In this document: positions 29,360 through 58,800 of the stretch, piece by piece
Layout of the letters: the number at the start of each line of letters is the position of its first letter
Numbering within the stretch: the stretch's first letter is position 1
DNA from: Rhizodiscina lignyota
Taxonomy: Eukaryota
Assembly: GCA_010015805.1 (NCBI GenBank)
Contig: ML978137.1
Location: 248,001 to 312,000, forward strand
Length of the DNA stretch: 64,000 nt
Reading direction: 5' to 3'
Program-made: the position numbers and the translations under genes
The notes under the pieces: model-generated
Databases searched by the model: none
The model's input: the letters and a program-made list of their open reading frames with translations, nothing else
Told to the model about the DNA's origin: nothing

Positions 29360-32300
29360 ATGCTGGGATCCTCACTTTTGCCGCGTCGATGGCGGACAGA
29401 GGGAGGCGAGCGAGCTGCTGGGCTTCCTCGCTGGTATAACCGACATATCACACCTGTCCTCCAATTCGTCTCGAGTCGGGCGTGCACACATCCCATTCAC
29501 ACAATCGTCTTCGTGGCGCTTCTTGCTAGTACGACATACGTCGGACTCCTCGAAACAAGCCTGTTCGACAGACCGATACATGCTGGCAGCGCATTGGGTA
29601 AAGCAGATTTCCATACCTTGATGGTGGGCAGCAAGCAGCTTCGAGCTGGCCCACAGACAGGCTGGAAGTGGCAGACGGAAGAGAATAGTAGCATTGCTGC
29701 GGTAGATGCTGGCGTTGAGGTAATTAATTCTATCAAGATATTTGCATCCATGCTGATACTGTAGTCCTCGCAGAACCTCGCTCTCCTAACCTTCGTCTTT
29801 CCCGATTCTTCACCGAGCTCTCCCCAGAGTGCCCCTCCTGCACACCATGTGCCGGTTCCAGAGAACTCGTCTGCAAAGCTCCTCCCTCCGTCGTCGAACC
29901 CGTTATCAGGCATCTCTCACGATACCACATTAGCATATTCTCTTCCCCTTTCTGAAGCGCCAAGCTTTCTAGAAGCGGTACAAGAAATTACTGCTGCAGA
30001 AGAGGATTTGAATGGACGCCATATACCGGGAGACGAGACTCTGGAAGAGCGAAAATGGATTATGAAAGCAGTCAAAAACAATACGAACAAGGCTGGAAGC
30101 TTGACAAGCTGGTCTCGTGATGCATGGATTGCTTTCCTTGACCTGATCAAGAATGCCGAGACATTGGATATCATCATTATGGTCCTCGGATACCTCTCGA
30201 TGCATCTGACATTCGTATCATTGTTCCTGTCCATGCGAAGACTTGGATCCAATTTCTGGCTTGCGGCTACAGTCCTCTTTTCATCCGTTTTCGCATTTTT
30301 GTTCGGCCTCACAGTGACAATGAAGCTTGGAGTTCCCATCAACATTGTTCTGCTTTCCGAGGGACTTCCATTCTTGGTTGTTACGATCGGCTTCGAGAAA
30401 CCGATCATATTGACCAAGGCAGTTCTTTCGGCGTCTCTTGACTATCGTCGAAAAGCCCACGCTCAAGGTGCATCCGACAAAACCGACGCGCAACCTTTCA
30501 ATATTCACGACGCAGTGCGAATTGCCGTCAAGGAGCGCGGATACGAAATTGTTCGCGACTATTGCGTCGAGATACTCATATTGACAGCTGGTGCAATGTC
30601 TGGAGTACAAGGCGGACTTCGACAGTTCTGCTTCCTCGCAGCGTGGATATTGTTCTTCGATTGCATCTTGCTCTTCACATTCTACACCGCAATCCTCACT
30701 GTAAAACTGGAAATCAACCGCATCAAGCGGCATGTGGCAATGCGTAAAGCACTAGAAGACGACGGCGTCAGCAAACGAGTGGCAGAAAATGTCGCTTCCA
30801 GTAACGACTGGCCAAACCTGACTCCAATGGAGGTCGAAGATGCAAAATCACAGGAGCGCACGATCTTCGGCAGAAAGATCAGGGCCAGCAGCATTCCGAA
30901 GTTCAAAGTCCTAATGGTTTCGGCGTTCGTTCTGATCAACTTGCTGAACGTATTCACTATTCCATTTAGGCATTCATGGAATCCTACGCGCGCAGTGCCA
31001 GGTTTGTCGAGCGTTGTCGCCCAGCCTCCAATGGACCCATTCAAAGTTGCAGGAAACGGACTAGAGAACATCATCTCAACATCTAAGAAGTCGAGCACTT
31101 CGGTCCTGGTCACTGTGTTCTGTCCCATCAAGTACGAACTCCAGTATCCCTCCATCCATTACGCTTCTCCTATCGGCTCTGCTGGCAACGGCCTGGACGT
31201 GGAAGCAGGCGATCTCTTCGATGGTATGGGCGGTAGAGTTGTGGAAGGTGTATTGAAGAGCTTGGAGGATCCAGTCCTGAGCAAGTGGATTATCGTTGCG
31301 TTGGCCATGAGTTTAGTCTTGAACGGTTATTTGTTCAATGCAGCTCGCTGGACGATCAAGGATCCATCACAGCCGCTACCACCCCCAAAGGCGAATGAAG
31401 TACAAGTCCCACCTTCGAACCCACCCACTCCCCCCAATGAGCCTGCATCAAATGGCCGTCCCAGACCTACTGCCACCCGACAGCAACCCCCGGAACGCCC
31501 ACTCAATGTCGAGAAGCTCGACGCACAATTAGAGCAAGCAGCTTCTGACAGATCTTTTGAAGACTGTGAAAGGATATTGAAGGAAAAGAAAGCTCCGAGC
31601 CTCACAGACGAAGAACTTGTCAAGCTGGCGCTTAAGGGCAAGATTCCAGGTTACGCGCTTGAGAAGACGCTTGAAAACAAGACTCGCGCAGTGAAAATCC
31701 GACGGGCACTCGTATCGCGTACACATGCCACGAGGCAAACTTCAAGTCTCCTTGAAACGTCAAAGGTACCATACGAAAACTACGACTACGATCGTGTATT
31801 CGGAGCGTGTTGCGAGAACGTCATTGGATACCTGCCTCTTCCGTTAGGTGTTGCTGGACCGTTGATGATCGATGGCCAAAATTACTTTCTCCCCATGGCG
31901 ACAACCGAAGGTGTTCTTGTAGCAAGCACTAGTCGAGGCTGCAAGGCAATCAACGCCGGAGGTGGAGCAGTCACAGTCGTCACTGGAGACGGCATGACTC
32001 GTGGACCTTGCGTCTCCTTCGACACACTCACTAGGGCTGGAGCTGCGAAGCTGTGGCTGGATTCAGCCGAGGGTCAGAAGGTGATGCGAGACGCGTTCAA
32101 CTCCACTAGCCGATTTGCGAGGTTACAGACAATGAAGACGGCTCTGGCTGGCACATATCTGTTTATCAGATTCAAGACCACGACTGGCGATGCGATGGGC
32201 ATGAACATGATCTCAAAGGGTGCTGAACACGCCTTGAATATCATGGCCACCGAAGCTGGCTTCGATGACATGATTATTATTTCCCTTTCTGGCAATTATT

Positions 32301-33042
32301 GTACCGATAAAAAGCCTGCGGCCATCAACTGGATCGACGGACGTGGCAAGAGCGTTGTTGCTGAGGCCATCATTCCTGCCGATGTGGTTAAGGGCACTCT
32401 CAAGACCGACGTCGCCTCGATGATAGAGCTCAACGTGAGCAAGAACTTTATTGGCAGCGCGATGGCAGGTAGTATCGGCGGGTTCAACGCGCACGCAGCA
32501 AACGTCTTGACGGCGATGTTTCTCGCAACCGGCCAGGACCCTGCGCAGAACGTCGAGAGCAGCCAGTGCATTACCATAATGAAGAAGTAAGCCTCATATC
32601 TGTGACCCACGCGCTCTTATATCATCATAACACTAACACGTTTTTCAGTCTCAACGGCAATCTACACATCTCCGTCTCGATGCCGTGCATTGAAGTCGGA
32701 ACTCTCGGCGGCGGCACCATCCTCGAACCTCAGGCCGCCTGCCTCGACCTCCTCGGCGTCAAGGGCTCCCACCCAACTAACCCTGGGGACAACGCCCGCC
32801 AACTCGCTCGCATCATCGCAGCTGGCGTGCTGGCAGGTGAGCTCAGCTTGTGCTCTGCCCTTGCGGCGGGACATCTTGTCAAGGCACACATGAGCCACAA
32901 TCGCAGCGCGGCGCCGAGTCGAGCTACGACACCTGGTCCTGAGTCCCAGAAGGAGAATATGCCGCAGTTTCAGAGGGGCGTGCAGACGCCGACGACTCTG
33001 GCGATGACAAGCATGAAGGATGCGGGGAAGAGTGAGCGGTGA
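29360..33042 (+). CDS. HMG1: 3-hydroxy-3-methylglutaryl-CoA reductase (class I); exons 29360-29719, ~29765-32586, 32649-33042
   Basis: HPIH N-terminal motif, a sterol-sensing domain ([15 protein letters not shown]), and catalytic motifs [45 protein letters not shown] and HLVKAHM. Confidence 0.98.
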
Positions 33043-37941: not shown

Positions 37942-39598
37942 ATGGAGGTCTCGAAGACGGCGTCCGGCGTGAGCGATTTTCTTCCTGCCCTCTCCTCCTC
38001 TAGAATCCTGTTGTTTCTTACGGCTTATCTGTGCTACTGTGCTTCAATTGCATTCTATCGGTTATATTTGCATCCCCTTGCAAAATTTCCAGGACCTCGC
38101 CTCGCCGCAGTTACTCTTTGGTATGAATTCTATTACGACGTTGTATTGCGTGGCAGATATACGTGGAAGATTGATGAATTGCATAACGAATATGGTATGC
38201 GGAAGTCCTCATAAATAAGAGTTATCCTTGATAACATCTCTTATAGGTCCCATCATTCGTATAAACCCTTATGAGCTGCATATTCGCGATCCGAGTGCGT
38301 ACGACAAGATCTATGCAGGCTACTCCGCGGGCAAGCGCGACAAGTGGCACTGGTCTGCAAAGATGTTCACAATCCCAACTTCCATGATTGCAACCGTGCC
38401 GCATGACCATCACCGCCTACGACGAGGGCTCCTATCCTCCTACTTTTCCACTCGCTCTGTGACTGCGCTAGAGCCAATGATTCGTTCTGCGGTTAACCGA
38501 ATGTGTACGAATATTCAAAAATATCATGAGACAGGCCAGCCTATGCGAATCTCGGACGCCTTTGCCAGCTTGACAATGGATGTGATCACAGAGTATACAT
38601 TTTCATCGAGCTACCATTGCGTGGACAGTAAAGACTTCGAAGGCGGCTTAAGATTTGCGGCCTCGTTCAAAGCCGCTACCCAGAGTAGTCACTTGGTCAA
38701 GCAGTTTGGCTGGTTGATACCAATGCTCAAAAGTATGCCATTGTGGCTCGCAAAGCTAGTTTTTCCTCCAATTGTGCCCCTGATTGAATTTGAACTTGTA
38801 AGTTCTCCCATTCCGCACATGTGAAGAACCCTTCTAATCATTCTGATCAAGGAAATAACCGATCAAGTTCTCCGCACACAAAGAGACGAGATCAAAGGCT
38901 CAGATATGCATCTAACGGTCTTTCAAGAGCTGTGGCAGAGCGATTGTGACCCCTCCGAGAAAACTACTCAGCGCCTTGTTAACGAAGGGCAGAGTATCGT
39001 TGCTGCTGGGATGCTCACAACGCACCACTTCCTGGAAACAACCACGTTCCTCATACTCTCGCACCCTGAAGTTCTGGAAAAACTTCGAAAAGAGCTAATT
39101 GAAGCTATGCCAACTCCTGAGACAGAGTTGAGCGTTGCGCAAATCGAAAAGCTACCTTATCTCGCTGCAGTCATAAAGGAAGGCCACCGCAAATCCTACG
39201 GGGTCATGCATCGTCTTCAGCGCGTCGACCCAGAGAAGACGATTGAATACAACGGCTTTGCCATTCCCCCAGGGACACCGGTGGGAATGTCTTCGAAACT
39301 CATGCACGACGACCCTTCAATCTTTCCAGAGCCCGAAAAGTTCGAACCGGAGCGGTTCTTGAGATCCGACGTCGAGCGTCTCGATAGATATCTTGTCCAC
39401 TTCAGCAAGGGAACGAGGATGTGCATAGGCTTGAACCTTGCCAATGCAGAGATTTGCCTCGCTTTGAGTTCAATCTTTCGGCGACTTGATTTGGAGTTAT
39501 ACGAGACAACATGGAAAGAAGACGTGGAGACTGCGCATGACTTCTTTGCTGCGACACCTCGCCAGACCTCGAAGGGTGTCAGAGTCCTTGTCAAATGA
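37942..39598 (+). CDS. Cytochrome P450 (trichodiene oxygenase-like family); introns 38195-38246 and 38798-38851
   Basis: [35 protein letters not shown] (ExxR), FEPERF and the heme motif [10 protein letters not shown]. Confidence 0.95.
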
Positions 39599-40480: not shown

Positions 40481-41463
40481 AGTCCCAACCGCGGGGACAG
40501 CTAAACGGGCAGTTTTGGAGGCCTGCGAAAGGACTATGAGATCAAACACGAGATAGTTACGACTACGAACAGATCGAACAGCATTGATTTCTCTGTACAA
40601 TAGACATAAATACTCACAGGGCTGCATAAATGGCACTAAACGACGCTAATCTCTTTGGGAGTATGATTATTTAGTGCCTCGTGCGGAATAATTTCTTCCC
40701 AGAGGCATCAAGTTAAGTCCAAATCCCTTGCAATGATGTCTACTTGATGCATAGCTTGAGTAAAATCGATACGTTGAAGGTGCACTATAATAGTATTGCT
40801 GTATTTATTCCGCTTGGTTTGACAAAGGTCTTTGTCCTCTCAAACCGAGTCCGAAGGCCAGGTTCAGGAACAGCAGAAGCCAATGCAACACCATTGTCAC
40901 CAGATCTCTGACACGACCTACAACCATTCCAATATTAATTCTACTCGGAGCCGCGATTCCGCTTCCGTACCATAAAAGCAACTCCGAGGTCTTGGAAATG
41001 GCGAGGTCCCACTCACGTGCATCGAGTTCGCCCGATTCGGAACATCGTCTCTATCAGCAGCCTCTTTCGTCCGCCAATTGCCACCGGCTATTTCACGACC
41101 TCAATCTCGCGAAGAACAATCGTGCCATTGTTCCCTTCTCAGCAGCTTGCGCGCTGCGCAGTCAAAATGACTAAGCCCCGTTCCATCTCCACGCCGTCCA
41201 AAAACTTCAGCTTGCCAAGCGCGGCCCGCATCTATCGTGCGAATGCGGCACCTTCGAGATGCCACAGAGAGCCCATGAAAATGCGGAGACGATGGAGGTG
41301 CGGCTTGAGTAATCTACGGGGGTTACAGGACACGTCTAATATATTTGTCTCTCAACTCTCTTTTGCGGAGTTGGCTTTGTGGCCCGTCTCTCGTACATTG
41401 CTTTGATACCTAGACGTTCCATCTGCACTTCCAGTCATCTCAATTCTTCTTCCTGTCAACAAA

Positions 41464-42915
41464 ATGTCTTCAGACCAATCTGTGGAACACTACGATCTCA
41501 TATCCCTCGGCTCCGGAGAGGCCGGCAAATTTATCGCCTGGACGTACCGAACAGAGCATCCGGACTCCAAATGCGCCGTCATCGAGCGTAAGTGGCTCGG
41601 TGGTTCTTGCCCCAATATCGCATGTTTGCCCAGCAAGAATGTCATCTACTCTGCCAAAGTAGCCCATGAAGCTGCGGAGGGAACGGCGTTTGGCCTGCCG
41701 TACATGGCTGCGGAGAGCAAGGTCAATATGAAATCGGTCATTGCCAGGAAGAAAGCGATGATTGATGGGCCTGGTGGGTTGATGGACGTTCACAAAGGGA
41801 ATTTCAAGCGCACGGGGGCCGAGCTGGTGTGGGGAGAGGGAAGGTTCATTGGACCGAAGACGATTGAAGTTGTAGGCTCGGATGGGAGCAAGAGAGTGAT
41901 GAAGGGCGACAAGGTGGTCATCTGCACGGGATCCCGTGCGAGGATCGATGACTCTGTGAAAGGATTGAAAGAGTCAAAGCCCCTTACACATATTGAGATG
42001 CTTGACTTGGAAGAGATCCCACGCCATCTCGTGGTGCTTGGAGGCGGATATGTGGGGGTGGAATTAGCGCAAGCCTGGAAGCGGTTCGGCAGCGAAGTGA
42101 CTGTTATCGAGAAACACGAGAGGATTCTGAAGAATGAAGATGAAGACATGGTCGAGTTGCTTACTGACATACTGCAGAGGGAGGGCGTTAAATTCTCAAC
42201 TGACACCACCATCACCGAGGTGACTGGAACGTCAGGAGATGCCGTCATACTCAAAGGCAGAACGACATGCGGCGCCTCTGTCGAGATAAACGCATCTCAT
42301 ATCCTTGTCGCAGCTGGCCGGACGCCCAATAACGATACAATGGGCGCAGAGCAGGGTGGTATTAAGCTTACGTCTCGAGGCTTCGTGGACGTCGACGAGT
42401 TCAACCGCGCCTCGGCAGATGGTGTCTTTGCGGTCGGCGACTGCGCGGGCTCGCCGAACTTCACGCACGTTGCATACGACGATTTCCGTATTGTGCGAGA
42501 CTTCCTTTCTGGCAAGATAACACCCGAGACGGACCCCCAGCGGAAGTCTGGAAGGCAGGTGCCTTGGACACTGTTCACCGCGCCGGAGATGGCTCACGTT
42601 GGGCTGAGAGAGCACGAGCTCAAAGCGCAGGGCATCAAATATCGAGTCGGGAAGCTCCCGATAGCAGCGTTCCTGCGCACGCGGACACTGGGCCCCGGCG
42701 AGACAGAAGGAGTTGCAAAGGTAACGGTGGGCGAGGATGACAAAATCTTGGGATTTACGGTCCTTGGAAGTGGAGTGGGTGACTTATTGCCGGTGGTGCA
42801 GCTGGCTATGAAGTTGGGCGTGAAGTATACGGAGATTAGCAATCTGATCCTCACGCATCCGACGTTGAGTGAGGGTCTGGTGTTCCTGTTTTCCGCTGTG
42901 CCTGAGAGGAGTTGA
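41464..42915 (+). CDS. Class I pyridine nucleotide-disulfide oxidoreductase (MerA/RclA/Lpd-like), intronless
   Basis: LGSGEAG, redox disulfide GGSCPNIACLPSK, LGGGYVGVE, AAGRTPN, FAVGDCAG and HPTLSEG. Confidence 0.93.
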   Translation: MSSDQSVEHYDLISLGSGEAGKFIAWTYRTEHPDSKCAVIERKWLGGSCPNIACLPSKNVIYSAKVAHEAAEGTAFGLPYMAAESKVNMKSVIARKKAMIDGPGGLMDVHKGNFKRTGAELVWGEGRFIGPKTIEVVGSDGSKRVMKGDKVVICTGSRARIDDSVKGLKESKPLTHIEMLDLEEIPRHLVVLGGGYVGVELAQAWKRFGSEVTVIEKHERILKNEDEDMVELLTDILQREGVKFSTDTTITEVTGTSGDAVILKGRTTCGASVEINASHILVAAGRTPNNDTMGAEQGGIKLTSRGFVDVDEFNRASADGVFAVGDCAGSPNFTHVAYDDFRIVRDFLSGKITPETDPQRKSGRQVPWTLFTAPEMAHVGLREHELKAQGIKYRVGKLPIAAFLRTRTLGPGETEGVAKVTVGEDDKILGFTVLGSGVGDLLPVVQLAMKLGVKYTEISNLILTHPTLSEGLVFLFSAVPERS

Positions 42916-49820: not shown

Positions 49821-51299
49821 TTTATAAGTAGAACTTCCCAGCGTTTGGTGATTCTAGAGATCTGAGACTCAAAAAGGTGGGAGCAGTCAACGACGCGATT
49901 ACAACGAGCTTTGGCACAAGGCTCCGTGCCTGAACACTTGAGAAATCGACAACATGTACCATGTAACTGAGTTCAAAGGGATCGAGCGTCGGCCCAAGTG
50001 GTGCGTCCCGTATTGATAGTGATTAAACGGGTGTGCGGGAGCAGAAGTGACGGTAAAAATCTAAAAATCCTTGAGAGTGTAGGCTGAAATTCCGGAACCC
50101 TCTCACAGCCACCATCGCGTGCATGATCCGGTGTAGCTGTGATCCAGTAAAACAGGTCCGAAGGCGCCTAAGACAGCCTGATGCAGCGAGCCGCATGGGA
50201 AGGAAATGGCACGCCTCTCTTGTACCGTGAACGAATACCAGATCGCGACAAAAAATGAAAGGGTACGGGCAGATTGGATCTTTGATGGGCAATTTTCCAG
50301 AACCAGCCATGAGACGGAGCATGAGATGTTGATTTTCTATCGATCTTTTTCGTTAGGATACCCGCTGACCGACGTTAGCGTCATTACTCCCCTCCAGAGG
50401 AAGAAAGACTCGTATTGTCTGTCTCTCAAAGACAAAGCTACATTGAAACATACCAGATGAAGGTTTGCACTGACTTGCGTTTGACTGCGGCTCCAAACAT
50501 TCACTTTCGGAGTGTGTTGAAGCGCGGCTCCAGCCAGTATATGTCATCACCCTCGTAGTTACAGTCACATCAACGGTAAGTAAAGCGTAACTGGCGTAGC
50601 AAACAATGATAGGTCTCATTCTATATATACAGAAGACGTGAAGCATGGATAAAGTTTAGGGTTCAAGATCTTCATTCCGAGATTATGTACGCTTGTCAAT
50701 CGTTGTAGACTTTGTTATAGTGAAAAGTACTGGCGGGTTCACGTAGGGTTTCTCACCACGTAGGGACGGACGTTAGTAAGTTTATATTTGAGGCTGTTAG
50801 GGAGTAGCTTACTGGGCCTGCCTTGGAAGATTTGCTTCTCGTTGTGGTGAAAAAGGGGTGCCGTTGCATGCCTCATACACTTACGTGAAACTGGCTCCTT
50901 CATCGTATGGCGGGATCTGTGGTCCTCATACGTACAGCCTGCAAGCCTCACGACGAGCCAGTCTTGCATTTCCGATTGACAGAAATACCCGTTAAAGGCA
51001 TTACTGTTATGGTATTCAGGGATTCTATCCGAAATCCAAGGTTGAAGCTATAAGTCTCACGATAATATGTCAGTCACGCACTGCCAACCAGCAGTCCGGA
51101 AAGGTCTCCATCTGGAGGTATACGAGCGATATTTTTAATCGGATCTCTCACAATGCACAGCATCAATGAATAAGATATGTTTCGGTCGAGTAGAGTGCAA
51201 TTCCTAGTATTGCCACAAGTGGCGGGAAAAGAATTGTACATATGCTTCCTCGTGGGGAAGACGCGCTTCTGTGCGCAATTGAAGTTCTCAAAGTTCTTG

Positions 51300-52195
51300 C
51301 TACTCAAAGAGATCGTAGCATGCTCCATGGAGGTCGTGCTCCCTGATGAAGTTCTCCTTCAAGTACGTGAACAACTCTTGACCTCTCATAGCTGGTACCG
51401 CCAGCACGCCACTCTCAATGCGCTGGAACAGCCATGAGAGCTCCAGTAGTTCTTCGTACTTTGGGGAATCGTCCCCCTCGAAGATCTCACGGAGGTAGTC
51501 GCAGAAGAAGTACGCCAGTGTCAGATTCTGTGTCTTCATCTGATCGATGCCCTTTTGCACCTCTCTGCAGAGAATATCGAGCTCATATCGGTCGTCTTCC
51601 GCCTGTTCGTGGCGTTCCAGCCACATCTCATAGTCGTCTTCTCGGTCATACTCCTCATCCTCGGGGTGCCTAAGTGAAGCGTAATATCTTTTTGTGAAGC
51701 AGAGTGAATAGATGTAGAGGGGAAGCATACGTGACATGTTCTCTGTATGGCGGCGGGGGATGCGGCGAATACAACGGGGGTCCTTCTTGAGATGCCGTTT
51801 CCTGCGCCGATTAGTCTTAGCCTTGACTTTTGATATCCTATTCAACTTACATTGCCTACGTTTCCACCATCCACTTGGACATGGTCTCCGTTTTCGCCAT
51901 CCGCTTCGGCATCGTCTGTGTTTGCCATGGCGACCGCGAAGACTTGCTCACCCTGGGAGACGACGTCGTCGAGCTTGTCATGTCGATGGAGGTGTGGGCC
52001 ATTCCAAGCATACAGACGGGCCTCGAGCATTTCCTCATTAAGCAGGCTTTGCTCTTGAGCTCGCACCCGCAGAGACGTCATCAGGTCATCTACGCTCCTT
52101 GCCGTGTCCATAGGTATGATGAATGAATCCTGGCTATATTCATCGTCCTCATATTCCACAGCGAGATGGACCATGTAGCGTTTGATGGTAGCCAT
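51300..52195 (-). CDS. Ubl/Par3-HAL-N-like domain protein, paralog A (~261 aa); exons 52195-51851, 51801-51731, 51669-51300
   Basis: Canonical introns (GTAAGT..CTAAT..CAG; GTATGC..TAG) join two track ORFs in frame. Domain, then PPLY/PPPPY, then an acidic helical C-terminus. Confidence 0.8.
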
Positions 52196-52779
52196 TGTTG
52201 TAGGACCACCGTTTAGCAGGGAAATGTTGTTGTTGAGAAAGTTGAAAGAATTTTGAAAGATGTTGTGGGTAATAACGCGCTATGCTGGCACATGACGCGA
52301 CACGTTGCCCGAGCGACCACCCCACACTTAGATAACTTCCATACGCGCTGTTCTGGGAAGCCGGAGTCTTAACCATCTCTCATTTTCTTATAAGTGATTA
52401 TGTGTGTGATGAGGGATTTATTCCCCAACGATGACAACGTGGCGGAGTTGGAACGATGTTGGAAACCGATATCACAAGTCAGTCTCATACTTCAACGTGA
52501 ACGAGACCATCTCCAAGAGTAGATTGCGGGGCCATGAATTTAGAGGGGGAAATTCTATGTGCAAGTCTTCATAGTGAAGCTATGTGCTACTGCTAGGTAC
52601 TTGTGCTCTTTCCTTTTGTCACTTGAAAAGTTCAGGATCCTGTGTGGATCCAACCGAAATCGATCATGTCGTCGTATGCGCCACAGAAATGTGAATTGCA
52701 GCTGCGCATCAGAATACCTCCTACTCTGTCTCAGATGGCTCAGCACAAGAATGAAGTTGAGGAGAGCAAATCAGTCCTC

Positions 52780-53812
52780 CTACAACTTAACATGGTGAGC
52801 CGTCTGCGCCTTCTTGCCCTTTCTACCCTTCTTTTCTCTTTCCTTCTTATCTCTCTTCTTGTTCGCCTTCAGGTTGTTCTCTAGTTCTTTGGCATCATCA
52901 GTGTCTTGGATATTTCCGGCATCCTCAGTGCTCTCAACCTCCGCCTTCTCAACTCTCTTGAAGATGTTGAGGAGACCTCCGTGAAATCCATGCTCCGCCA
53001 TGAACTCCACAATCTCATCATCGGTCATGTCGGGTAGATCTGGCTTCCTGGCCTCGAGATCATCCTTCAACGCGAAGACGCGGGGAAGGAAATCAAGTAT
53101 CCAGTAACGTTTGAGATGGAGCAGATGATAGCCGATCCAATTGCGGATTATGACACCAGTCTTGCCCTTCAATCCCAGATGTTCTAGAAAAGGGTCCAGA
53201 GTAATCTCGCGTTCGATATACGTCAATACTCCGTCGAGGATGTCAGGGGGAGTTTCCTCGATGTACAGGTCGATGAGGGCCTCGTCGTACCTAGTATTCT
53301 CGGTCAGTTTCATACAACTTGATTATGAAATTATGAGGTTAGGTTTAAACGTACGCGACGTACAGTGAACCCGTGATGAACGATCGATTCTTGCCGTCCG
53401 CACGGACTTCACCGCCATGATGATGAGGGCTCTGTATTACGTTAGCCCGTGTGCGCGATCGGAATATTTGCTGACTTACGCAAGGCCGGGTAGCGTAGGG
53501 GCTCATAGCGAGACGCGCAAGCGGACAATTTCTCGCAATGTACGCCCAGATCTCCTCCTTCGCGGGATCGAGGACAACGGTAGACAAAGTGTCACGGTTG
53601 TACATGGACGGGCCGTCGAACGTATTCAAGTAGAGAGTCAAGCAATGCCGCATCTTCATGGTGCCTTGCTCGACAGCCCGGAACTTGATTTCCCTGACCA
53701 AATCATGGACCGGAGCACTCGGGTTGAAGGGAACGATGATCCTGATTTTTTGATCGTCTGGTTCGGGCTTCTTCTCGAAGAAGTTGATGATGTATCGGTG
53801 AGTGTCCGCCAT
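52780..53812 (-). CDS. Ubl/Par3-HAL-N-like domain protein, paralog B (~303 aa); exons 53812-53480, 53431-53364, 53290-52780
   Basis: Same intron phases (0, 2) and middle-exon size (68 vs 71 nt) as paralog A. Helical C-domain with a Lys/Arg-rich end. Confidence 0.8.
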
Positions 53813-54178
53813 GATGTTCGTGCTGTTGCGGTGTGGAGGTGTTGTGGTTAAGAGAGTTGAGAAGATACTCAAAAGTTTTGTGCGTGATGGCGTCACGCGT
53901 GTATTACAGCCGGCGGGAGTGAAGCGAAACCCAACAGGATGAGTGTTTGGAGAGAAACGGAAGCTTAAAGTTTAGTCTGCTCTTCACACAATCCGCACTG
54001 ACCAGGATGTCCCGCTAGCTATGCGAATTAGAAGGGGACAGAAGAGTGAATTAAAAGACACAATGTCGACTGCTCCAAATATGCGAGAAGACACTAGCTC
54101 CACTGCTTGCCTTTTAATCGTTCTCATCTTTTTCACTGCCTCCAATGTCAACCGTAACAATGATGTTCATTCAGCTAC

Positions 54179-55031
54179 CTATTGTCCATGGATACCTGTG
54201 AGTTCTTCGAACGGAGCATAAGTTATACCATGATATGCTGTCTCAATAACAGTCACCCGATTCGCGTCTAATACTTCGGGCGGCATCTGCCCTAGGCGTC
54301 CCAGAATCACTTCCATCTGGTCCAGGTCGCCGTAAGTTAGCTCGGGGAATCCAGGGTGGTCATTCAAGATGTCGCGGTAAACGGCGCGAAAGTCATGTTG
54401 AGTTTTGAAGACGTTGTCGATGAGATCTCGTATCTCGTCCTTCCGTTGAGGCAGCTCCGAGATTGGGCGGCGTCGTGGAGTTGCAGTGCGGGAACTTTGA
54501 GATGAAACCTTTTGCTTTTTATGATATGATACTGCGGTCTCTGCCTCGATAGCATCGTCGAGATGCTTTGAAGGTGTGCGCGTTTGCTGGGGGTGACCTC
54601 GCCGAAGCCGCTTCCTTGGCCTTGACGGTTCAGAGTCTGGTTCGCTCGTAAGATCGATTACTTCCTGTGATTGTTTAGCAATTGCAAGGCTGTTATCTGA
54701 CAATATAGCTCACCGTATCCCGTTCAGAACTAACGCCTTCTTCACTTTGGCCATGCAGAGTATCCTGGAACACGGCAAAGATGACTTCCGTAGCAGGTGT
54801 CACCACTACTGATGACAGCTTGTCTCGTGGTGAGATGAACGGGCCGCCAGCGCTGCCAAGGCGAAGCTTGAGGTTGCCTTTGTTGATCAGATGTTCTTCG
54901 ACGGCTCGAGTGCGGATCTCTTCGAGGAAGGTGGATACAAGTGCATCGGACTGAAACGGAACCAGGAGAGAGATATCGTTTGGTTCGCCTGATTGCTGTG
55001 CATTCACGATCGTAATCGTGTACCGCTCCAT
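54179..55031 (-). CDS. Ubl/Par3-HAL-N-like domain protein, paralog C (~267 aa); exons 55031-54714, 54664-54179
   Basis: Phase-0 intron GTGAGC..CAG after the domain. The tail starts EVIDLT..RPRKRLRR. Confidence 0.8.
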
Positions 55032-55404
55032 GTTGAGCAGGGAGCAAAGGAATGGTGTTAGTGTGGTGGGCAAGTTGTGGCAAGATAAGCGCAGGATGAA
55101 GGGCAGAAAGTATTATAGAGCTAAGAGGTGAAACAGGGGGAAATAAACGTTAGAATGATGAAGTAAATCCCAGACGTCTATTCATCTAGCAGCATACCCT
55201 TCACTGCCGGAAACCATGTGAAGCTTCTGATTCAAAAGCGATAGCTTCACTCCTCAATCCCCCCAGTTCGCCATTTGTATCACCTAAGTGCCTTGTCATT
55301 CCATCTGACGACTATCCCGCCAAGTCCACTAACACGGCTCAGGCTCTCCACTTCCTACTGTGCGGGAGATGATTCGGTTTCGCGCGTGCATGGTAGGCTA
55401 CAGC

Positions 55405-55870
55405 TCAACAACTGTTTTTGGCAGTATTATCGGGTGGTTCCGCCTCATCACTAGGACGAGGAGAGAGACCAATCTTGCCAACTCGCGAAGCCTGTGCCAG
55501 ATTAGGACACTTATTCTACCATGGTGAATATTTTGAATGAGCATTTCCTGCCGCGCAATTCGGCGAAGAGGAAAATTGAGTAAGACAGGTGCAGGCATAC
55601 CGTAGTAGCAAAGATCTCATATCTTACAGGCACACCGACGATATCTGCGAGGAAATCATTCTCCCAGACAAGGGGTCCATCTTCGCAGCCAAGACGGAGA
55701 ACGAAACGGTCGTGCTTTGTGAGGATGCCTATTTTGACTGCGCGAGACTGAACTTCATCGTGTAGCTCCTTGAAGGTTCGGTTAGGATAGAAGGAAATCA
55801 TCATAGAATCCTTCACCACGAATGCGTTGTCTTTGTGGACGATGAAGTTAACTTTGTATGGCTCCCGCAT
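55405..55870 (-). CDS. Ubl/Par3-HAL-N-like domain protein, paralog D, essentially domain-only (~118 aa); exons 55870-55601 and probably 55491-55405
   Basis: MREPYKVNF..ISFYPNRTFKELHDEVQSRA..LRLGCEDGPLVWENDFLADIV..EIFA with a phase-0 GTATGC donor. The acceptor choice is uncertain. Confidence 0.7.
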
Positions 55871-58800
55871 CGTGCTAGATAGAGAGTTGAGGAGCAGAGA
55901 GAGGGATGGATTCATGCACCGTTTAACATAGCAGCGGTCTGCAACAAAGAAGCTCGGTAGGCCGCGTTAGTCCGCCAGAGATGGATAGACTAGGTCCCGC
56001 GGATCCGCTATTATATCGGATCATTAATGTCGTTGAGTGCAGGAACGGAAAGCGTGTATTGACCGACAGATGGCCGCGCTGAGAGATCAAGGCCGCTCTC
56101 GTTTGGATGTGGCCGTTCTCGTTTGGATGTGGACTTCTGTCCCATCCCACAGGACACTTGAATTAACATGCCATTACTACCAATGCTCTTAATTCCAGAA
56201 GAAGCTTGGTCTTCTCACTCGTCCCGTTAGCACTAGGTGTGCCCATCGTTCACATATTTGTGACCGTGCCGTATTCACGACATAGGACGTGCAGATGCAG
56301 TTCTGCGGCACTCAACTTGATATCAAACGGCAATAAGCTGTATGATATCATGTTGTCTCGCGAAACTGCATCATGAGCCCCACGGTGGGCTGTCCCATAG
56401 GATGAATCCTGTCTGGCCGGAGCTGCTTGATTCAGGGTTATCCAGCTACAGCACACCATGGGTTACCCATTGGTGTCCTTTTGCTGCGATGTTCCTGGCT
56501 GCAGGGTCCTGCCGACTGTATCAGAGCCTCCGTCGGTGAAAGTATGTGCTTGGAGCGATAGTGAAGGTTTCAGGGATGAGGGGGCCGACGACCTCGTCAA
56601 CTAAGTTCTCCTATGCGAATAGGTCAGCGAAGTTGTCTAAGCATGCACGTATCGGACGAAGTCCTTACAGAACTGAGCATATGCGGCGACTGACAGAGAT
56701 GCCTTGATACAAGTCACGTCTCCAAGTCCCGTCTCGGAGAGTACATGGATTTGGGAGTAGACAGGTTTCTCCCATGCCGAAGTTTCCCCCACTCATCACC
56801 ACTTCTGCAACTTTTGTCCAGCTACAGAAAAGTCTCGATGAATTCAGTATGGATCCCAGACAGTGTGTACGATTTCCAACATGATCTTCAATACTCTCCC
56901 GGCAGAGCTACGCTACATAGGTGTCTATGAGTTCGCCTTTCCCAACGACGCCGAATGAGTGCATCCCCGTCCCGGGCGGCATACAATAATGCGGCTCGTT
57001 ATTTCATTAGGTCTCAATTGTCTCGAGTAGGTCGATGATTACACCTGAAGTGCCTAGCTATGCTCTATGCCACGTTAGAGACAGCTTTCTTCTGCCATTA
57101 CTCAGTCAGGATCTATCACGACGCCCTTCAAGTCTGTTATGAGACAAGCTAGATGCGTACGTAAAAGACCGTATTCGCATAGCTGGTGAAAGAAGTATCT
57201 CGCGTGATGCCAGAACTGCTAGTTTGAGCTGTAGTGGAAAGGAATGCTGTGGACCTTCGATGGGCGTGGTAATTGACACAACTCGGCATGGAAGTATCAC
57301 TGCTGTATATCTCAACACGCCAAGTTCCTCAATGAGCTCCGAGGTGTCTGCAAAGACGCATAGATGATAAGGTCGACCTCGCCCTCGTGCCGCCCAAATG
57401 CACAACCTCCGTACAAGTCAGCCCAGTGACTAGAACGTACTGTGATGACTGAAGTCTGATATTTCCTGCGGCATCTTGAAGCAACGATAAATCCAAGGCG
57501 ACTCAGAAACAAGGCAATTATGTACATGCACGTCAGCCCCGCCAATTCAATTCTGTAAAAACCACCAATCGGAAGTAACTTTAGCTGCAAGGAGGACGAA
57601 TAGAAAATACAGACCCACTGAATATTTCCACATGACCTTAAGAGCACTCATTGGTGGTAACTGGGCGAAAGTCACATTCGCGGGGCGTATCAGAACGTGA
57701 TGCATTTGCGAACGAAGGGGGACAGTCGGGCGTATATTTCAGTGGAGCTCAATGTACTCTGCCTGGCAAAATAATCTCATCCGATATCGCATTTTATCAT
57801 CCTGACTGACTTGTGAGCAAGGCAAAAGGCAACTGGGTTCCAGTGAACATGTTCCGGACTTCGCGACTCACGGTCAGAAGGTATCGAGAGGGGAATCCTG
57901 TGAATGGGGCGTAGAAGGCAGAATGAATAAATTCCTCGACAAAGATCATCGCTTCCATCCATGATCTCTTAGCTGATTCGTGCTTGCTTCGGTATTGGCA
58001 AGGCTCTTCGCGGTTGTCACTGTATTTTGGTCCTTCCTGTGAGAGTCATGTCCAGTAAGACAATATCTGAAATGTGCGCGCACAACCGATGCTAACGCTC
58101 TACTAGGCTCTTGCAGGTCCTTAAATTGTACACGAAAAGCAATTCCATACTTTTACTTTTGCGACTATCGTAAGTTTCGTGAAGTTGTTTTAGTTACCCA
58201 CAATAGTGGAGTATATGCTAAGCGTCCATTTCGACAGACATTTGCAGTGAGTGCAATTGCTCACGCGAGCGATGGAACGGGAAGAAATTCTGCAACTATC
58301 GTAAGTATATGATCGATCTGATCTACATTGTATCGAAGCCCATAGCCCTTACTCGAGCTAATCCATAGCTTTGTCAGACTGTTCCGACTCAAACATCTGT
58401 CGGTGGGATGGCATTGAAAGATGCGACATGAGACGTAACAGTCCAAGCCACTTTTGTGGATCTCGTATGTGTATTGCACATTGGAAACAAACTTGGGGGC
58501 CGAGAACTATGTGAACTAATCCGGACCGTACAGATATCTGTCTAACCAAAAGATGTACGTCGAAGCGGAAGCCTACCGGCGACTATTGCGGGAATCGTAA
58601 GTAGTATCTTGGAAGGGATTCTGCCGACACAGGGATAACTTCGTTCTCCAGACACCTGCAATCGCCCTGACTGCAAAGCGGAGAAACACGAGAGTTATGA
58701 TTATTGTTCAGATCGTAGGTAGTGAGCAATACTGGTGTGAAATCATATGCTAAGCCCGCCAGACTGGTATCAGCCATGGAAAGATGAAGGAAAGAAATTG

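What the first reader, a model, noticed from the sequence alone, without database searches (positions are those of the whole stretch)
51300..55870. Tandem array of four diverged genes sharing an exon-encoded Par3/HAL-N-like ubiquitin-fold module fused to unrelated tails
Seen: four adjacent minus-strand genes begin with a ~85-90 aa domain of shared pattern, [RP]Y.[IV]...[IL][VI]P[FM]....V..L..E[IV]..RA......L.L...[DN/G]GP.....D.L..[VI]V....E.[IV][FW]A, although pairwise identity is low. In all four, a phase-0 intron follows the domain, and A and B also share a ~70-nt middle exon and a phase-2 intron. The tails differ completely: acidic helical (A), helical plus basic (B), SIM/NLS-like plus helical (C), almost none (D). 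Knowledge: the pattern resembles the Par3/histidine-ammonia-lyase N-terminal beta-grasp domain (Par3_HAL_N_term/DUF3534), and the Par3 N-terminal domain self-associates front-to-back like PB1/DIX. Inference: a fast-evolving, lineage-specific modular system in which a common polymerising or heterodimerising adaptor assembles different effector tails, with D as a possible decoy or cap. This is reminiscent of non-self-recognition or signalosome loci.
Basis: partly seen in the sequence, partly recalled or inferred. Interest (0 to 1): 0.82.

Follow-up and report, generated by a model that had tools for sequence, protein, structure and literature searches.

The report
Four tandem fungal Par3-like UBL genes
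A wood-dwelling fungus has four neighbouring genes that all begin with the same small ubiquitin-like docking domain, a distant relative of the chain-forming head of the animal polarity protein Par-3, but end in unrelated tails; their function is untested.

Summary
Four minus-strand genes at 51300-55870 each open with a ~90-aa homologous domain: 6 of 6 pairwise BLASTP comparisons are significant (E 3e-15 to 8e-5). The window has no fifth copy.

The Par3/HAL-N call is right at family level. None of the four domains hits Pfam alone, but 25 of 58 aligned family members hit PF12053. The family profile finds only Par-3 N-terminal domains among all PDB sequences (E 2.6e-4). AlphaFold models of B and A are beta-grasp.

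New context: in other Pezizomycotina the domain usually heads giant uncharacterised U-box + VWA + E2 proteins. The window copies belong to a divergent side clade that has lost the acidic loop shared with Par-3. The tails are orphans.

Caveats: the public annotation fuses D and C, which I judge a probable artefact. No RNA data exist. Polymerisation, decoy and non-self-recognition roles are untested, and the neighbourhood is ordinary metabolism. This is a moderately interesting new variant of a known domain family.

The parts
51300..52195 (-). Gene A (public protein P0007, 261 aa, KAF2093639.1). Exons 52195-51851, 51801-51731 and 51669-51300. It has a UBL head, a disordered Pro-rich linker carrying PPLY and PPPY, and an acidic helical tail.
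   Evidence: AlphaFold model: residues 1-95 at pLDDT about 95, linker 100-147 at pLDDT below 60, helices from 148 onward at pLDDT 60-80.
51926..52195 (-). Par3/HAL-type UBL domain of A
52780..53812 (-). Gene B (public protein P0006, 306 aa, NA57DRAFT_81140). Exons 53812-53480, 53431-53355 and 53290-52780. It has a UBL head, a helical tail and a Lys-rich C-terminus.
53537..53812 (-). Par3/HAL-type UBL domain of B
   Evidence: AlphaFold model (pLDDT 83.6). Fold searches.
54179..55031 (-). Gene C read from its own ATG. Exons 55031-54714 and 54664-54179. Exon 2 opens with VIDLTSEPDSE (SIM-like) followed by RPRKRLRR (NLS-like), then a helical tail.
   Evidence: The own start is supported by the family N-terminus MERY.
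54768..55031 (-). Par3/HAL-type UBL domain of C
55405..55870 (-). Gene D as a separate small gene (my model, 118 aa). Exon 1 is 55870-55601, followed by a 109-nt intron with a CTAAT branch site 14 nt before the AG, then a terminal exon 55491-55405 (28 aa). The public model instead splices 55601 to 55025.
55601..55870 (-). Par3/HAL-type UBL domain of D, the most divergent copy

Best explanation
This is a tandem array of four same-strand paralogous genes in the Dothideomycete Rhizodiscina lignyota. If the public D+C fusion is real, there are three genes. Each protein starts with a ~90-aa ubiquitin-like beta-grasp domain of the Par3/HAL N-terminal family, encoded by exon 1 and closed by a phase-0 intron.

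Shown:
- The four heads are homologous.
- They fold as UBLs.
- They are divergent members of a Pezizomycotina-wide family. In that family's long members, the domain is the extreme N-terminus of giant proteins carrying U-box, VWA and E2 (UQ_con) domains.
- The tails are orphans.

Inferred:
- The head is a protein-docking module, not a conjugated modifier. It sits at the N-terminus and is followed by more protein, so no free C-terminal Gly-Gly is exposed.
- It tethers different tails to a common partner. The tails are A (acidic helices plus two PY motifs), B (helical plus a Lys-rich end), C (SIM-like plus NLS-like plus helices) and D (almost nothing).
- The most likely partner is the UBL head of the mainstream family members (the giant E2/E3 enzyme), or ubiquitin/SUMO machinery.
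- The array probably arose by repeated duplication of promoter plus exon 1. The phase-0 boundary would let new downstream sequence be captured as tails. A and B are whole-gene duplicates whose tails have diverged beyond recognition.
For: Homology of the heads:
- 6 of 6 BLASTP pairs are significant.
- The window holds only four copies.

Fold:
- B model: pLDDT 83.6, beta-beta-alpha-beta-(alpha)-beta.
- A model: domain pLDDT about 95, same topology.
- All top fold matches are UBLs.
- Par-3 NTD 4i6p_A scores Z 10.1 (rmsd 2.0, 75 aligned, 20% identity) and Z 10.4 (rmsd 2.2, 78 aligned, 18% identity).
- Par-3 NTD 2ns5 is the best single-domain Foldseek hit for A (E 2.8e-4).

Family:
- A profile of the four copies finds 125 proteins at E<=1e-3 among 1.84 billion representatives.
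- Of 41 longer hits scanned, 11 carry U-box, 7 VWA, 6 UQ_con and 7 PF12053 at 20.7-23.8 bits.
- The named hits are hypothetical proteins of Zalaria, Dothistroma, Cercospora, Aureobasidium, Cercophora, Apiospora and Dactylella.
- 25 of 58 aligned family members hit PF12053, best E 6.9e-7.
- The family profile against all PDB sequences returns only three Par-3 NTD entries as significant (E 2.6e-4 to 8.7e-4); the next hit is E 0.41.

N-terminal position: the domain starts at the N-terminus in 102 of 119 non-window members.

Exon-1 module: the intron after the domain is phase 0 in all four genes. In addition, 45 of 71 short database 'proteins' of the family carry a 'VS' read-through signature after the domain, against 18.1 expected from shuffled tails.

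Orphan tails: no Pfam hit, no homologues for B or for the A tail, and no similarity to 124 other family proteins.

Linear motifs were read directly from the translations. The PY motifs lie in a linker that AlphaFold leaves disordered.
Against: - No binding, expression or phenotype data exist, so the docking role is inference from family and position.
- None of the four domains reaches Pfam's PF12053 threshold alone (0 of 4).
- Fold searches cannot separate Par-3 NTD from other UBLs. 136 chains and 114 chains score Z>=8, with kindlin F0, talin F0, ISG15, SUMO and Get5 tied.
- The window clade has replaced the acidic loop residues that link the family to Par-3. At the column aligned to Par-3 D60, 54 of 58 mainstream members are acidic against 0 of 7 in the window clade. 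At the D62 column the figures are 41 of 58 against 1 of 7 (mapping). The binding surface may therefore differ from both Par-3 and the giants.
- I could not check whether R. lignyota has a giant family member, because no genome is held.
- The PY, SIM and NLS assignments are short motifs seen by eye and could be chance.
- The clade that unites the window copies has only SH-aLRT 84 on a 98-column alignment.
Confidence: 0.5

Rival explanations
1. One reading: the heads polymerise head-to-tail like the Par-3 NTD, PB1 or DIX domains. They build a mixed filament or signalosome that displays different effector tails. D acts as a cap or decoy, in a non-self-recognition-like system.
For: Family-level homology is to the Par-3 NTD specifically. 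That domain forms head-to-tail helical filaments through charged patches, and V13D and D70K make it monomeric (review PMC5583741, passages read). The hydrophobic residue and proline aligned to Par-3 V13 and P15 are kept in the family (alignment; P nearly invariant).
Against: The acidic loop aligned to Par-3 D60/D62 is lost in all four window copies and their three nearest relatives in the alignment (0 of 7 and 1 of 7 acidic). No NACHT, NB-ARC, HET, HeLo or transposon domains occur among the 32 neighbouring ORFs scanned; the neighbours are HMG-CoA reductase, P450, a pyridine-nucleotide-disulphide oxidoreductase (Pyr_redox_2), LicD, DUF7492 and an epimerase. I scanned 32 of the 61 stop-to-stop ORFs of at least 150 aa, so small genes were not covered. 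D's status as a separate tail-less gene is itself uncertain.
Confidence: 0.15
2. These are classical UBL-domain adaptor proteins, like Rad23/Dsk2, Get5 or BAG1. The head docks on a UBL receptor (proteasome, Sgt2-like co-chaperone or Hsp70 system) rather than on other copies of itself.
For: The Get5/Mdy2 UBL is the top Foldseek hit for B (3zdm_C, E 2.3e-4, TM 0.64). Rad23, Dsk2, BAG1 and Ddi2 UBLs score Z 9.3-9.9. An N-terminal UBL with a variable tail is the standard layout of that class (general knowledge).
Against: Sequence profiles link the family to Par-3 NTD only. No ubiquitin-family Pfam model (PF00240) or other UBL chain reaches significance. No UBA, BAG, STI1 or other client-binding Pfam domain is found in the tails.
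Confidence: 0.12
3. The array is evolutionary debris. It consists of exon-1 duplicates of a family gene that picked up random downstream sequence, is weakly or not expressed, and has no selected function.
For: The tails have no homologue anywhere searched. The ESM Atlas models of the full-length public proteins that include the B and C tails have low confidence (mean pLDDT 0.51 and 0.49). The heads sit on long branches (A 1.07, D 1.39 changes per column).
Against: All four heads keep the family's invariant core (Y, R, G-P, D, L, V) and fold confidently. All reading frames and GT..AG splice sites are intact. B has a 48%-identical relative (P0008) in another assembly, and A groups with P0021 and P0024. 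The copies therefore predate at least one speciation.
Confidence: 0.15
4. This is a structural rival and is independent of function. D and C are one gene encoding a tandem UBL-UBL protein, as in the public model KAF2093641.1, so the array has three genes.
For: The public annotation joins 55601 to 55025 with a canonical GT..AG phase-0 intron. Several giants show a faint second UBL-like signal just after the first (domain E 0.39-8.9).
Against: - The intron would be 575 nt, against 48-64 nt for the other five introns, and it has no CTRAY branch site near its acceptor.
- It skips an in-frame ATG that gives C the family's canonical N-terminus MERY. The consensus is MERYTV, and 102 of 119 members start with the domain.
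- None of the 119 non-window members has two copies of the domain.
- A 109-nt intron with a CTAAT branch site, followed by a 28-codon terminal exon, gives D its own stop at 55405. That leaves about 370 nt before C's ATG, the same spacing as between C and B.
Confidence: 0.25

Closest known systems
Par-3 N-terminal domain (CR1/NTD; PDB 4i6p, 3zee, 2ns5) and Pfam PF12053 Par3_HAL_N_term
   Same: Both are beta-grasp folds. Both sit at the extreme N-terminus. They share a P-containing beta-2 strand and a G-x-(I/L)-L-D-x-x-D-x-L-x-D-V loop at family level. These are the only solved proteins the family profile finds.
   Different: The window copies fail the Pfam threshold individually. They have replaced the acidic loop residues. 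They come from a fungus, not an animal. They have no PDZ domains, and self-assembly is untested.
Giant uncharacterised Pezizomycotina proteins with an N-terminal UBL plus U-box, VWA and UQ_con (E2) domains, e.g. Dothistroma septosporum EME39358.1, Cercophora newfieldiana KAK0652494.1, Cercospora zeina KAM3414997.1
   Same: They have the same N-terminal domain family (E 1e-4 to 3e-11 to the window profile). The domain is at residue 1 in both.
   Different: The giants are 950-1635 aa with E3 and E2 catalytic domains. The window genes are 118-306 aa with orphan tails, and they lie on the other side of the tree from all 14 giants.
UBL-domain adaptor proteins (Get5/Mdy2, Rad23, Dsk2, BAG1)
   Same: They share the layout of an N-terminal non-conjugatable UBL with a variable C-terminal part, and the fold is similar.
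   Different: There is no sequence-level relationship, and the tails carry no UBA, BAG or STI1 domain.
PB1 and DIX head-to-tail polymerising modules
   Same: They are beta-grasp-like folds used for oligomerisation. Par-3 NTD was described as PB1-like (title of PDB 2ns5; review PMC5583741).
   Different: No PB1 or DIX Pfam hit was found. Neither appears in the fold-search lists shown, which does not exclude them.

Membership tests
Pfam PF12053 Par3_HAL_N_term | Each protein matches the family HMM at or above the gathering score (21 bits) | tested here: not met
   0 of 4 window domains list PF12053, even at E<=10.
Pfam PF12053 Par3_HAL_N_term | Transitive or profile homology: close relatives match the HMM, and the family profile matches Par-3 NTD | tested here: met
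   25 of 58 members of alignment A3 hit PF12053 at E<=0.01, best 6.9e-7. 7 of 41 longer relatives score 20.7-23.8 bits. The A3 profile hits only Par-3 NTD chains in the PDB, at E 2.6e-4, 3.3e-4 and 8.7e-4.
Pfam PF12053 Par3_HAL_N_term | Beta-grasp fold superposable on Par-3 NTD | tested here: met
   4i6p_A scores Z 10.1 (rmsd 2.0, 75 aligned) and Z 10.4 (rmsd 2.2, 78 aligned). 2ns5 gives Foldseek E 1.3e-3 and 2.8e-4. These scores are tied with many other UBLs, so the fold alone is not specific.
Pfam PF12053 Par3_HAL_N_term | Position at the extreme N-terminus of the protein | tested here: met
   The domain begins at residues 1-7 in all four genes. The same holds in 102 of 119 other family members.
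Par-3 NTD functional class (head-to-tail polymer) | Salt-sensitive self-association into filaments through complementary charged patches | not testable with these tools
   This needs SEC-MALS, cross-linking or EM on purified domains. The sequence shows that the acidic loop aligned to Par-3 D60/D62 is not conserved in the window clade.
Ubiquitin-like beta-grasp superfamily | beta-beta-alpha-beta-(alpha)-beta topology with a mixed sheet packing one helix | tested here: met
   DSSP of the models gives E5-12, E23-29, H35-49, E59-62, H76-79, E87-91 for B and E4-14, E20-30, H35-48, E56-61, H75-78, E85-90 for A. Only A and B were folded. C and D are inferred by homology.
Conjugatable ubiquitin-like modifiers | A C-terminal Gly-Gly exposed at or near the end of the domain | tested here: not met
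   The domains end in ...IFA/IWA/VFA and continue into linkers and tails, with no GG.
Fungal non-self-recognition / NLR-associated loci | A NACHT/NB-ARC, HET, HeLo or amyloid-motif partner gene in the cluster | tested here: not met
   None was found among 3 tails and 32 neighbouring ORFs scanned against Pfam. The 32 are a subset of the 61 ORFs of at least 150 aa. Small genes and spliced genes may have been missed.

The most novel reading that the evidence does not exclude
The small UBL proteins are dedicated partners of the giant U-box/VWA/E2 enzyme found across Pezizomycotina. The mainstream head polymerises head-to-tail like Par-3 through its acidic loop. The window clade swapped that loop for aromatic and basic residues, and so became one-sided hetero-partners. 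These would cap or seed the enzyme's polymer and bring in PY-, SIM- and NLS-bearing tails. Together this would be a fungal 'polymerising ubiquitin-ligase signalosome' with an expandable set of exon-shuffled adaptors.
Probability: 0.12. Interest if true: 0.75.

Novelty: new variant of a known kind. Interest (0 to 1): 0.42.

Why it matters
Par-3's N-terminal domain is a textbook animal polarity oligomerisation module. This analysis shows that a related UBL is widespread in filamentous ascomycetes. There it sits at the head of large, unstudied E2/E3 hybrid proteins, and one lineage has spun it off into a tandem set of small proteins with new tails.

If the heads do pair or polymerise, this would give a tractable fungal system for studying how head-to-tail UBL assemblies are capped, diversified and coupled to ubiquitin or SUMO pathways. 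It would also be a clean example of exon-1 shuffling across a phase-0 intron creating new genes.

If they do not, it remains a useful correction to the public annotation: a D/C fusion, 'hypothetical protein' labels, and the UniRef name 'peptidylprolyl isomerase' for the giants.

My searches found no paper on the fungal family:
- 'Par3_HAL_N_term': 0 papers.
- 'PF12053' or 'DUF3534': 2 papers, on other subjects by their titles.
- Two searches on the U-box/VWA/E2 architecture: nothing on these proteins, judged from titles and abstract starts.

Tried and rejected
- **RNA evidence.** The look-up of sequencing runs listed no RNA holder. The one run laid (X1) is DNA: a single 104,003-nt contig identical over 51000-56200. 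It is probably the source itself. Expression and splicing therefore stay untested.
- **Complex prediction.** Two copies of the C head gave 'no answer' (score 0.00, controls not run). This is not evidence either way.
- **Whole-genome search.** No genome is held for this window. I could not look for further copies or for the giant family member in this fungus.
- **The search for homologous proteins.**
  - Full-length B found only itself.
  - The A tail found only itself.
  - The family alignment with 'longer' lengths found only B, because 8000 word-sharing candidates crowded the search. These are weak negatives.
- **ESM Atlas.** The B and C tails gave no usable feature hit, and structure TM was 0.37 or lower.
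- **The search for related loci on metagenome contigs.** I dropped it, so synteny in other organisms is untested.
- **Possible tandem pairs elsewhere.** P0008/P0009 and P0021/P0024 each share a contig length (2187 and 4146 nt). This hints at tandem pairs elsewhere but does not prove it.
- **Tail homology.** There are marginal local matches only: A/B over 16 aa with the pattern F..EH..HG....[LI]F, and B/C over 36 aa. None survives phmmer. I rejected these as evidence of common origin, although A and B share exon architecture.
- **Upstream DNA.** Only a CT-rich 14-nt box is shared by B and D. The alignment of the four leaders is weak.
- **PB1, DIX and BAG readings.** No Pfam support. The BAG1 row has rmsd 23 and is not meaningful.
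- **Papers.** Feng 2007 (PMC1888665) and Zhang 2013 were not held. The exact Par-3 interface residues beyond V13 and D70 could therefore not be mapped.
- **Earlier findings of this scan.** Nothing was found.

Full report
**1. What is there**

The window looks fungal: it has short GT..AG introns and 50% G+C. Three public proteins returned by the searches are encoded letter for letter in this stretch. They are named as hypothetical proteins of Rhizodiscina lignyota (Dothideomycetes, Aulographales):
- P0007 = KAF2093639.1 (gene A)
- P0006 = NA57DRAFT_81140 (gene B)
- P0005 = KAF2093641.1 (D exon 1 joined to C)

The genome appears in the search listing of the '101 Dothideomycetes genomes' paper (PMC7082219, listing only).

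On the minus strand, four first exons start at 52195 (A), 53812 (B), 55031 (C) and 55870 (D).

**2.

The four N-terminal stretches align over about 90 residues with 11 invariant columns. All 6 of 6 BLASTP pairs are significant, from 3e-15 (B/C) to 8e-5 (A/D). A profile of the four finds no further copy in any six-frame ORF of at least 30 aa in the 64-kb window; the next best hit has E 0.06.

A script that searched for GT..AG exon chains reproducing the public proteins found one solution each:
- A has exons of 345, 71 and 370 nt, with introns of 49 nt (phase 0) and 61 nt (phase 2).
- B has exons of 333, 77 and 511 nt, with introns of 48 nt (phase 0) and 64 nt (phase 2).
- C has a 49-nt phase-0 intron.
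- D's first exon ends in phase 0.

The tails are unrelated by sequence. BLASTP shows only two short marginal matches and phmmer shows nothing.

**3. Three genes or four?**

The public model fuses D and C through a 575-nt intron whose acceptor lies two codons inside C's own start. I think this is probably wrong, for four reasons:
- The other five introns are 48-64 nt and have CTRAY branch sites. The long one has none near its 3' end.
- The fusion discards an ATG that gives C the family's canonical N-terminus MERY (consensus MERYTV).
- In 102 of 119 non-window family members the domain starts the protein, and none of the 119 has two copies.
- D can be closed by a 109-nt intron with a CTAAT branch site 14 nt before the AG, followed by a 28-codon exon ending at 55405. 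That leaves about 370 nt to C's ATG, the same spacing as between C and B.

No RNA run was available to settle this (see Tried and rejected). I give the fusion 0.25.

**4. What the domain is**

Pfam finds nothing in any of the four heads. An exhaustive HMMER search with the four-sequence profile against 1.84 billion representatives gave 125 proteins at E<=1e-3, 10 at E<=1e-10 and 3 at E<=1e-30. The top three are the window's own proteins.

I judged five hits to be repeat-protein false positives:
- Three (P0026, P0059, P0126) carry ubiquitin-family or Calx-beta repeats by Pfam.
- P0028 has no Pfam family.
- P0123 has only sub-threshold Pfam hits.
- Four of the five showed only weak repeated per-domain hits when re-scored.
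- P0123 fell out altogether when re-scored.

The rest, plus two cluster mates, make 119 non-window members.

Evidence that this is the Par3/HAL N-terminal family:
- An alignment of the four heads with 54 short members (A3) shows a clear signature: MERYTV ... LLVPF ... R ... LRL ... GP.LD..D.L.DV..DP..E.IFA.
- 25 of those 58 sequences hit Pfam PF12053 Par3_HAL_N_term at E<=0.01, best 6.9e-7.
- 7 of 41 longer relatives hit it at 20.7-23.8 bits; the gathering score is 21.
- The A3 profile, run against all 177,635 distinct PDB sequences, returns only Par-3 N-terminal domains as significant: 4i6p 2.6e-4, 3zee 3.3e-4, 2ns5 8.7e-4. The next hit is at 0.41.

It is visible only through intermediates.

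**5. Fold**

AlphaFold2 models of B (four-sequence alignment, pLDDT 83.6) and of full-length A (65-sequence alignment, domain pLDDT about 95) both give a beta-beta-alpha-beta-(alpha)-beta beta-grasp.

Fold searches return ubiquitin-like domains throughout:
- Par-3 NTD 4i6p_A is at Z 10.1 and Z 10.4, with the highest or near-highest sequence identity in the lists (20% and 18%).
- It is tied within one Z unit with kindlin and talin F0, ISG15, SUMO-like, Get5 and others.
- Foldseek ranks Get5 UBL first for B (E 2.3e-4).
- Foldseek ranks Par-3 NTD as the best single-domain hit for A (E 2.8e-4).

The fold confirms a UBL. The Par-3 assignment rests on sequence profiles. C and D were not folded; they are covered by homology only.

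**6. Where the family lives**

Of the 119 non-window members, 74 are 160 aa or shorter, 31 are 161-899 aa and 14 are 900 aa or longer.

The long ones are giant proteins with the UBL at residue 1, a U-box around residue 650-950, a VWA domain and a C-terminal UQ_con (E2) domain. Among the 41 scanned, U-box occurs in 11, VWA in 7 and UQ_con in 6. The named ones are 'hypothetical proteins' of Zalaria obscura, Dothistroma septosporum, Cercospora zeina, Aureobasidium pullulans, Cercophora newfieldiana, Apiospora saccharicola and Dactylella cylindrospora. These span Dothideomycetes, Sordariomycetes and Orbiliomycetes. UniRef's automatic name for them, 'peptidylprolyl isomerase', has no support in the Pfam scan.

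Many of the short 'proteins' are probably first exons read through into an intron. 45 of 71 carry 'VS' (GTRAGT read in phase 0) a median of 14 residues after the domain, with a stop about 10 residues later. Shuffled tails give 18.1 expected. This suggests that the phase-0 intron after the domain is a family-wide feature and that exon 1 is the module.

**7. Where the window copies sit**

I built a maximum-likelihood tree of 122 domain rows (IQ-TREE quick search, LG+G4, 98 columns). In it, the four window copies fall on one side of a branch (SH-aLRT 84) together with four database sequences:
- P0008, sister of B (support 94; 48% identity)
- P0021 and P0024, sister of A (support 83)
- P0041

All 14 giants lie on the other side. 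Support is modest, and I dropped the false positives, duplicates of the window proteins and one partial hit (P0090) beforehand.

This side clade has a diagnostic change, mapped through the alignment:
- At the column aligned to Par-3 D60, 54 of 58 mainstream members are acidic, against 0 of 7 clade members (S, Y, H, W, G, Y, N).
- At the D62 column the figures are 41 of 58 against 1 of 7, with R, R, H in C, B and A.
- The following Asp is invariant in all 65.

This explains why the window heads miss the Pfam threshold. It also means that their surface differs from both Par-3 and the giants in the very loop that ties the family together.

**8. Tails and motifs**

No tail has a Pfam family, a homologue (weak negatives), a match to any other family protein or a usable ESM Atlas neighbour.

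Read directly from the translations:
- A's middle exon encodes PPLY and PPPY in a linker that AlphaFold leaves disordered (pLDDT below 60 over about 100-147). A helical acidic region follows (pLDDT 60-80).
- C's second exon opens with VIDLT followed by SEPDSE, and then RPRKRLRR.
- B ends in a Lys-rich run.

From general knowledge (recalled, not tested), PPxY is the ligand of the WW domains of Rsp5/Nedd4 ligases. (V/I)(V/I)DLT followed by acidic or Ser residues is a SUMO-interacting motif of the PIAS type. Basic clusters act as nuclear localisation signals. These are hints, not findings.

**9. Surroundings**

Pfam scans of 32 neighbouring ORFs show ordinary genes. The 32 were drawn from the 61 stop-to-stop ORFs of at least 150 aa in the window. 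The hits were FYVE, GNAT, AMP-binding, CCCH zinc finger, HMG-CoA reductase, P450, a pyridine-nucleotide-disulphide oxidoreductase (Pyr_redox_2), LicD, DUF7492 and an NAD-dependent epimerase. No NACHT, HET, HeLo, transposase or RIP-like AT-rich block is seen; G+C is 0.44-0.61 across 46-62 kb. The 'non-self-recognition locus' analogy has no support from context.

**10. How it most likely works**

Shown: a tandem set of homologous N-terminal UBLs of the Par3/HAL family with orphan tails, in a family whose long members are E2/E3 hybrids.

Inferred:
- The head is a docking module rather than a modifier. It has no C-terminal GG and is always followed by more protein.
- The array diversifies what is docked.
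- The partner is most plausibly another UBL of the same family (the giants' head) or ubiquitin/SUMO machinery.

Par-3's domain self-assembles head-to-tail through charged patches, and V13D and D70K make it monomeric (review PMC5583741, passages read). Loss of the acidic loop in the window clade argues against a plain copy of that mechanism. It is compatible with one-sided hetero-pairing, which is my most novel admissible reading (probability 0.12).

Origin: A and B share a three-exon layout with the same phases. They are probably whole-gene duplicates with fast-diverging tails. The phase-0 boundary after exon 1 would allow the head to be joined to any phase-0 downstream exon.

**11. Verdict**

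The domain assignment is confirmed at family level. The functional story is untested, and its immune-like flavour is unsupported.

I rate this a new variant of a known domain family, not a new kind of system. The giant UBL/U-box/VWA/E2 proteins, which appear unstudied in my searches, may be the more interesting lead. Interest 0.42.

Noticed in passing
relatives, not in the window: P0071, P0106, P0111, P0113, P0115, P0121: Giant proteins (1335-1635 aa) from seven named Pezizomycotina genera combine an N-terminal Par3-like UBL, a U-box, a VWA domain and a C-terminal E2 (UQ_con) domain in one chain. All are annotated as hypothetical. UniRef auto-names them 'peptidylprolyl isomerase', and the Pfam scan does not support that name. 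About 700 residues between the UBL and the U-box have no Pfam family.
   Followed up: partly
window 55026-55600 (-): The public annotation (KAF2093641.1) treats this stretch as a single 575-nt intron fusing D to C. The stretch contains a good short intron, a 28-codon exon with a stop, and C's own ATG.
   Followed up: yes
window 53354-53368 (-): Gene B has two GTACGT donors 9 nt apart at the end of its middle exon, and both are in frame. Either gives a phase-2 intron. The products differ by three residues.
   Followed up: partly
window 56091-56130: A tandem direct repeat of a 20-nt unit (95% identical) lies about 220-260 nt upstream of D's ATG. Its meaning is unknown.
   Followed up: no
relatives P0008/P0009 and P0021/P0024: The closest relatives of B and C come from a 2187-nt contig, and the closest relatives of A come from a 4146-nt contig. 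In each pair both proteins are seen on one contig of identical length, which hints that tandem pairs of this side clade exist in other, unnamed organisms. The contigs could not be fetched.
   Followed up: no
relatives P0012, P0017, P0025, P0075, P0084, P0091, P0122: A faint second match to the UBL profile (domain E 0.39-8.9) lies just after the first domain, at residues ~100-200, in several longer members. The giants may carry a second, more diverged UBL.
   Followed up: no
window 29765-33042 (+), 38219-39598 (+), 41407-42915 (+): Ordinary metabolic genes lie upstream: HMG-CoA reductase with a sterol-sensing domain, split over two ORFs by an intron or frame change; a cytochrome P450; and a pyridine-nucleotide-disulphide oxidoreductase.
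   Followed up: no
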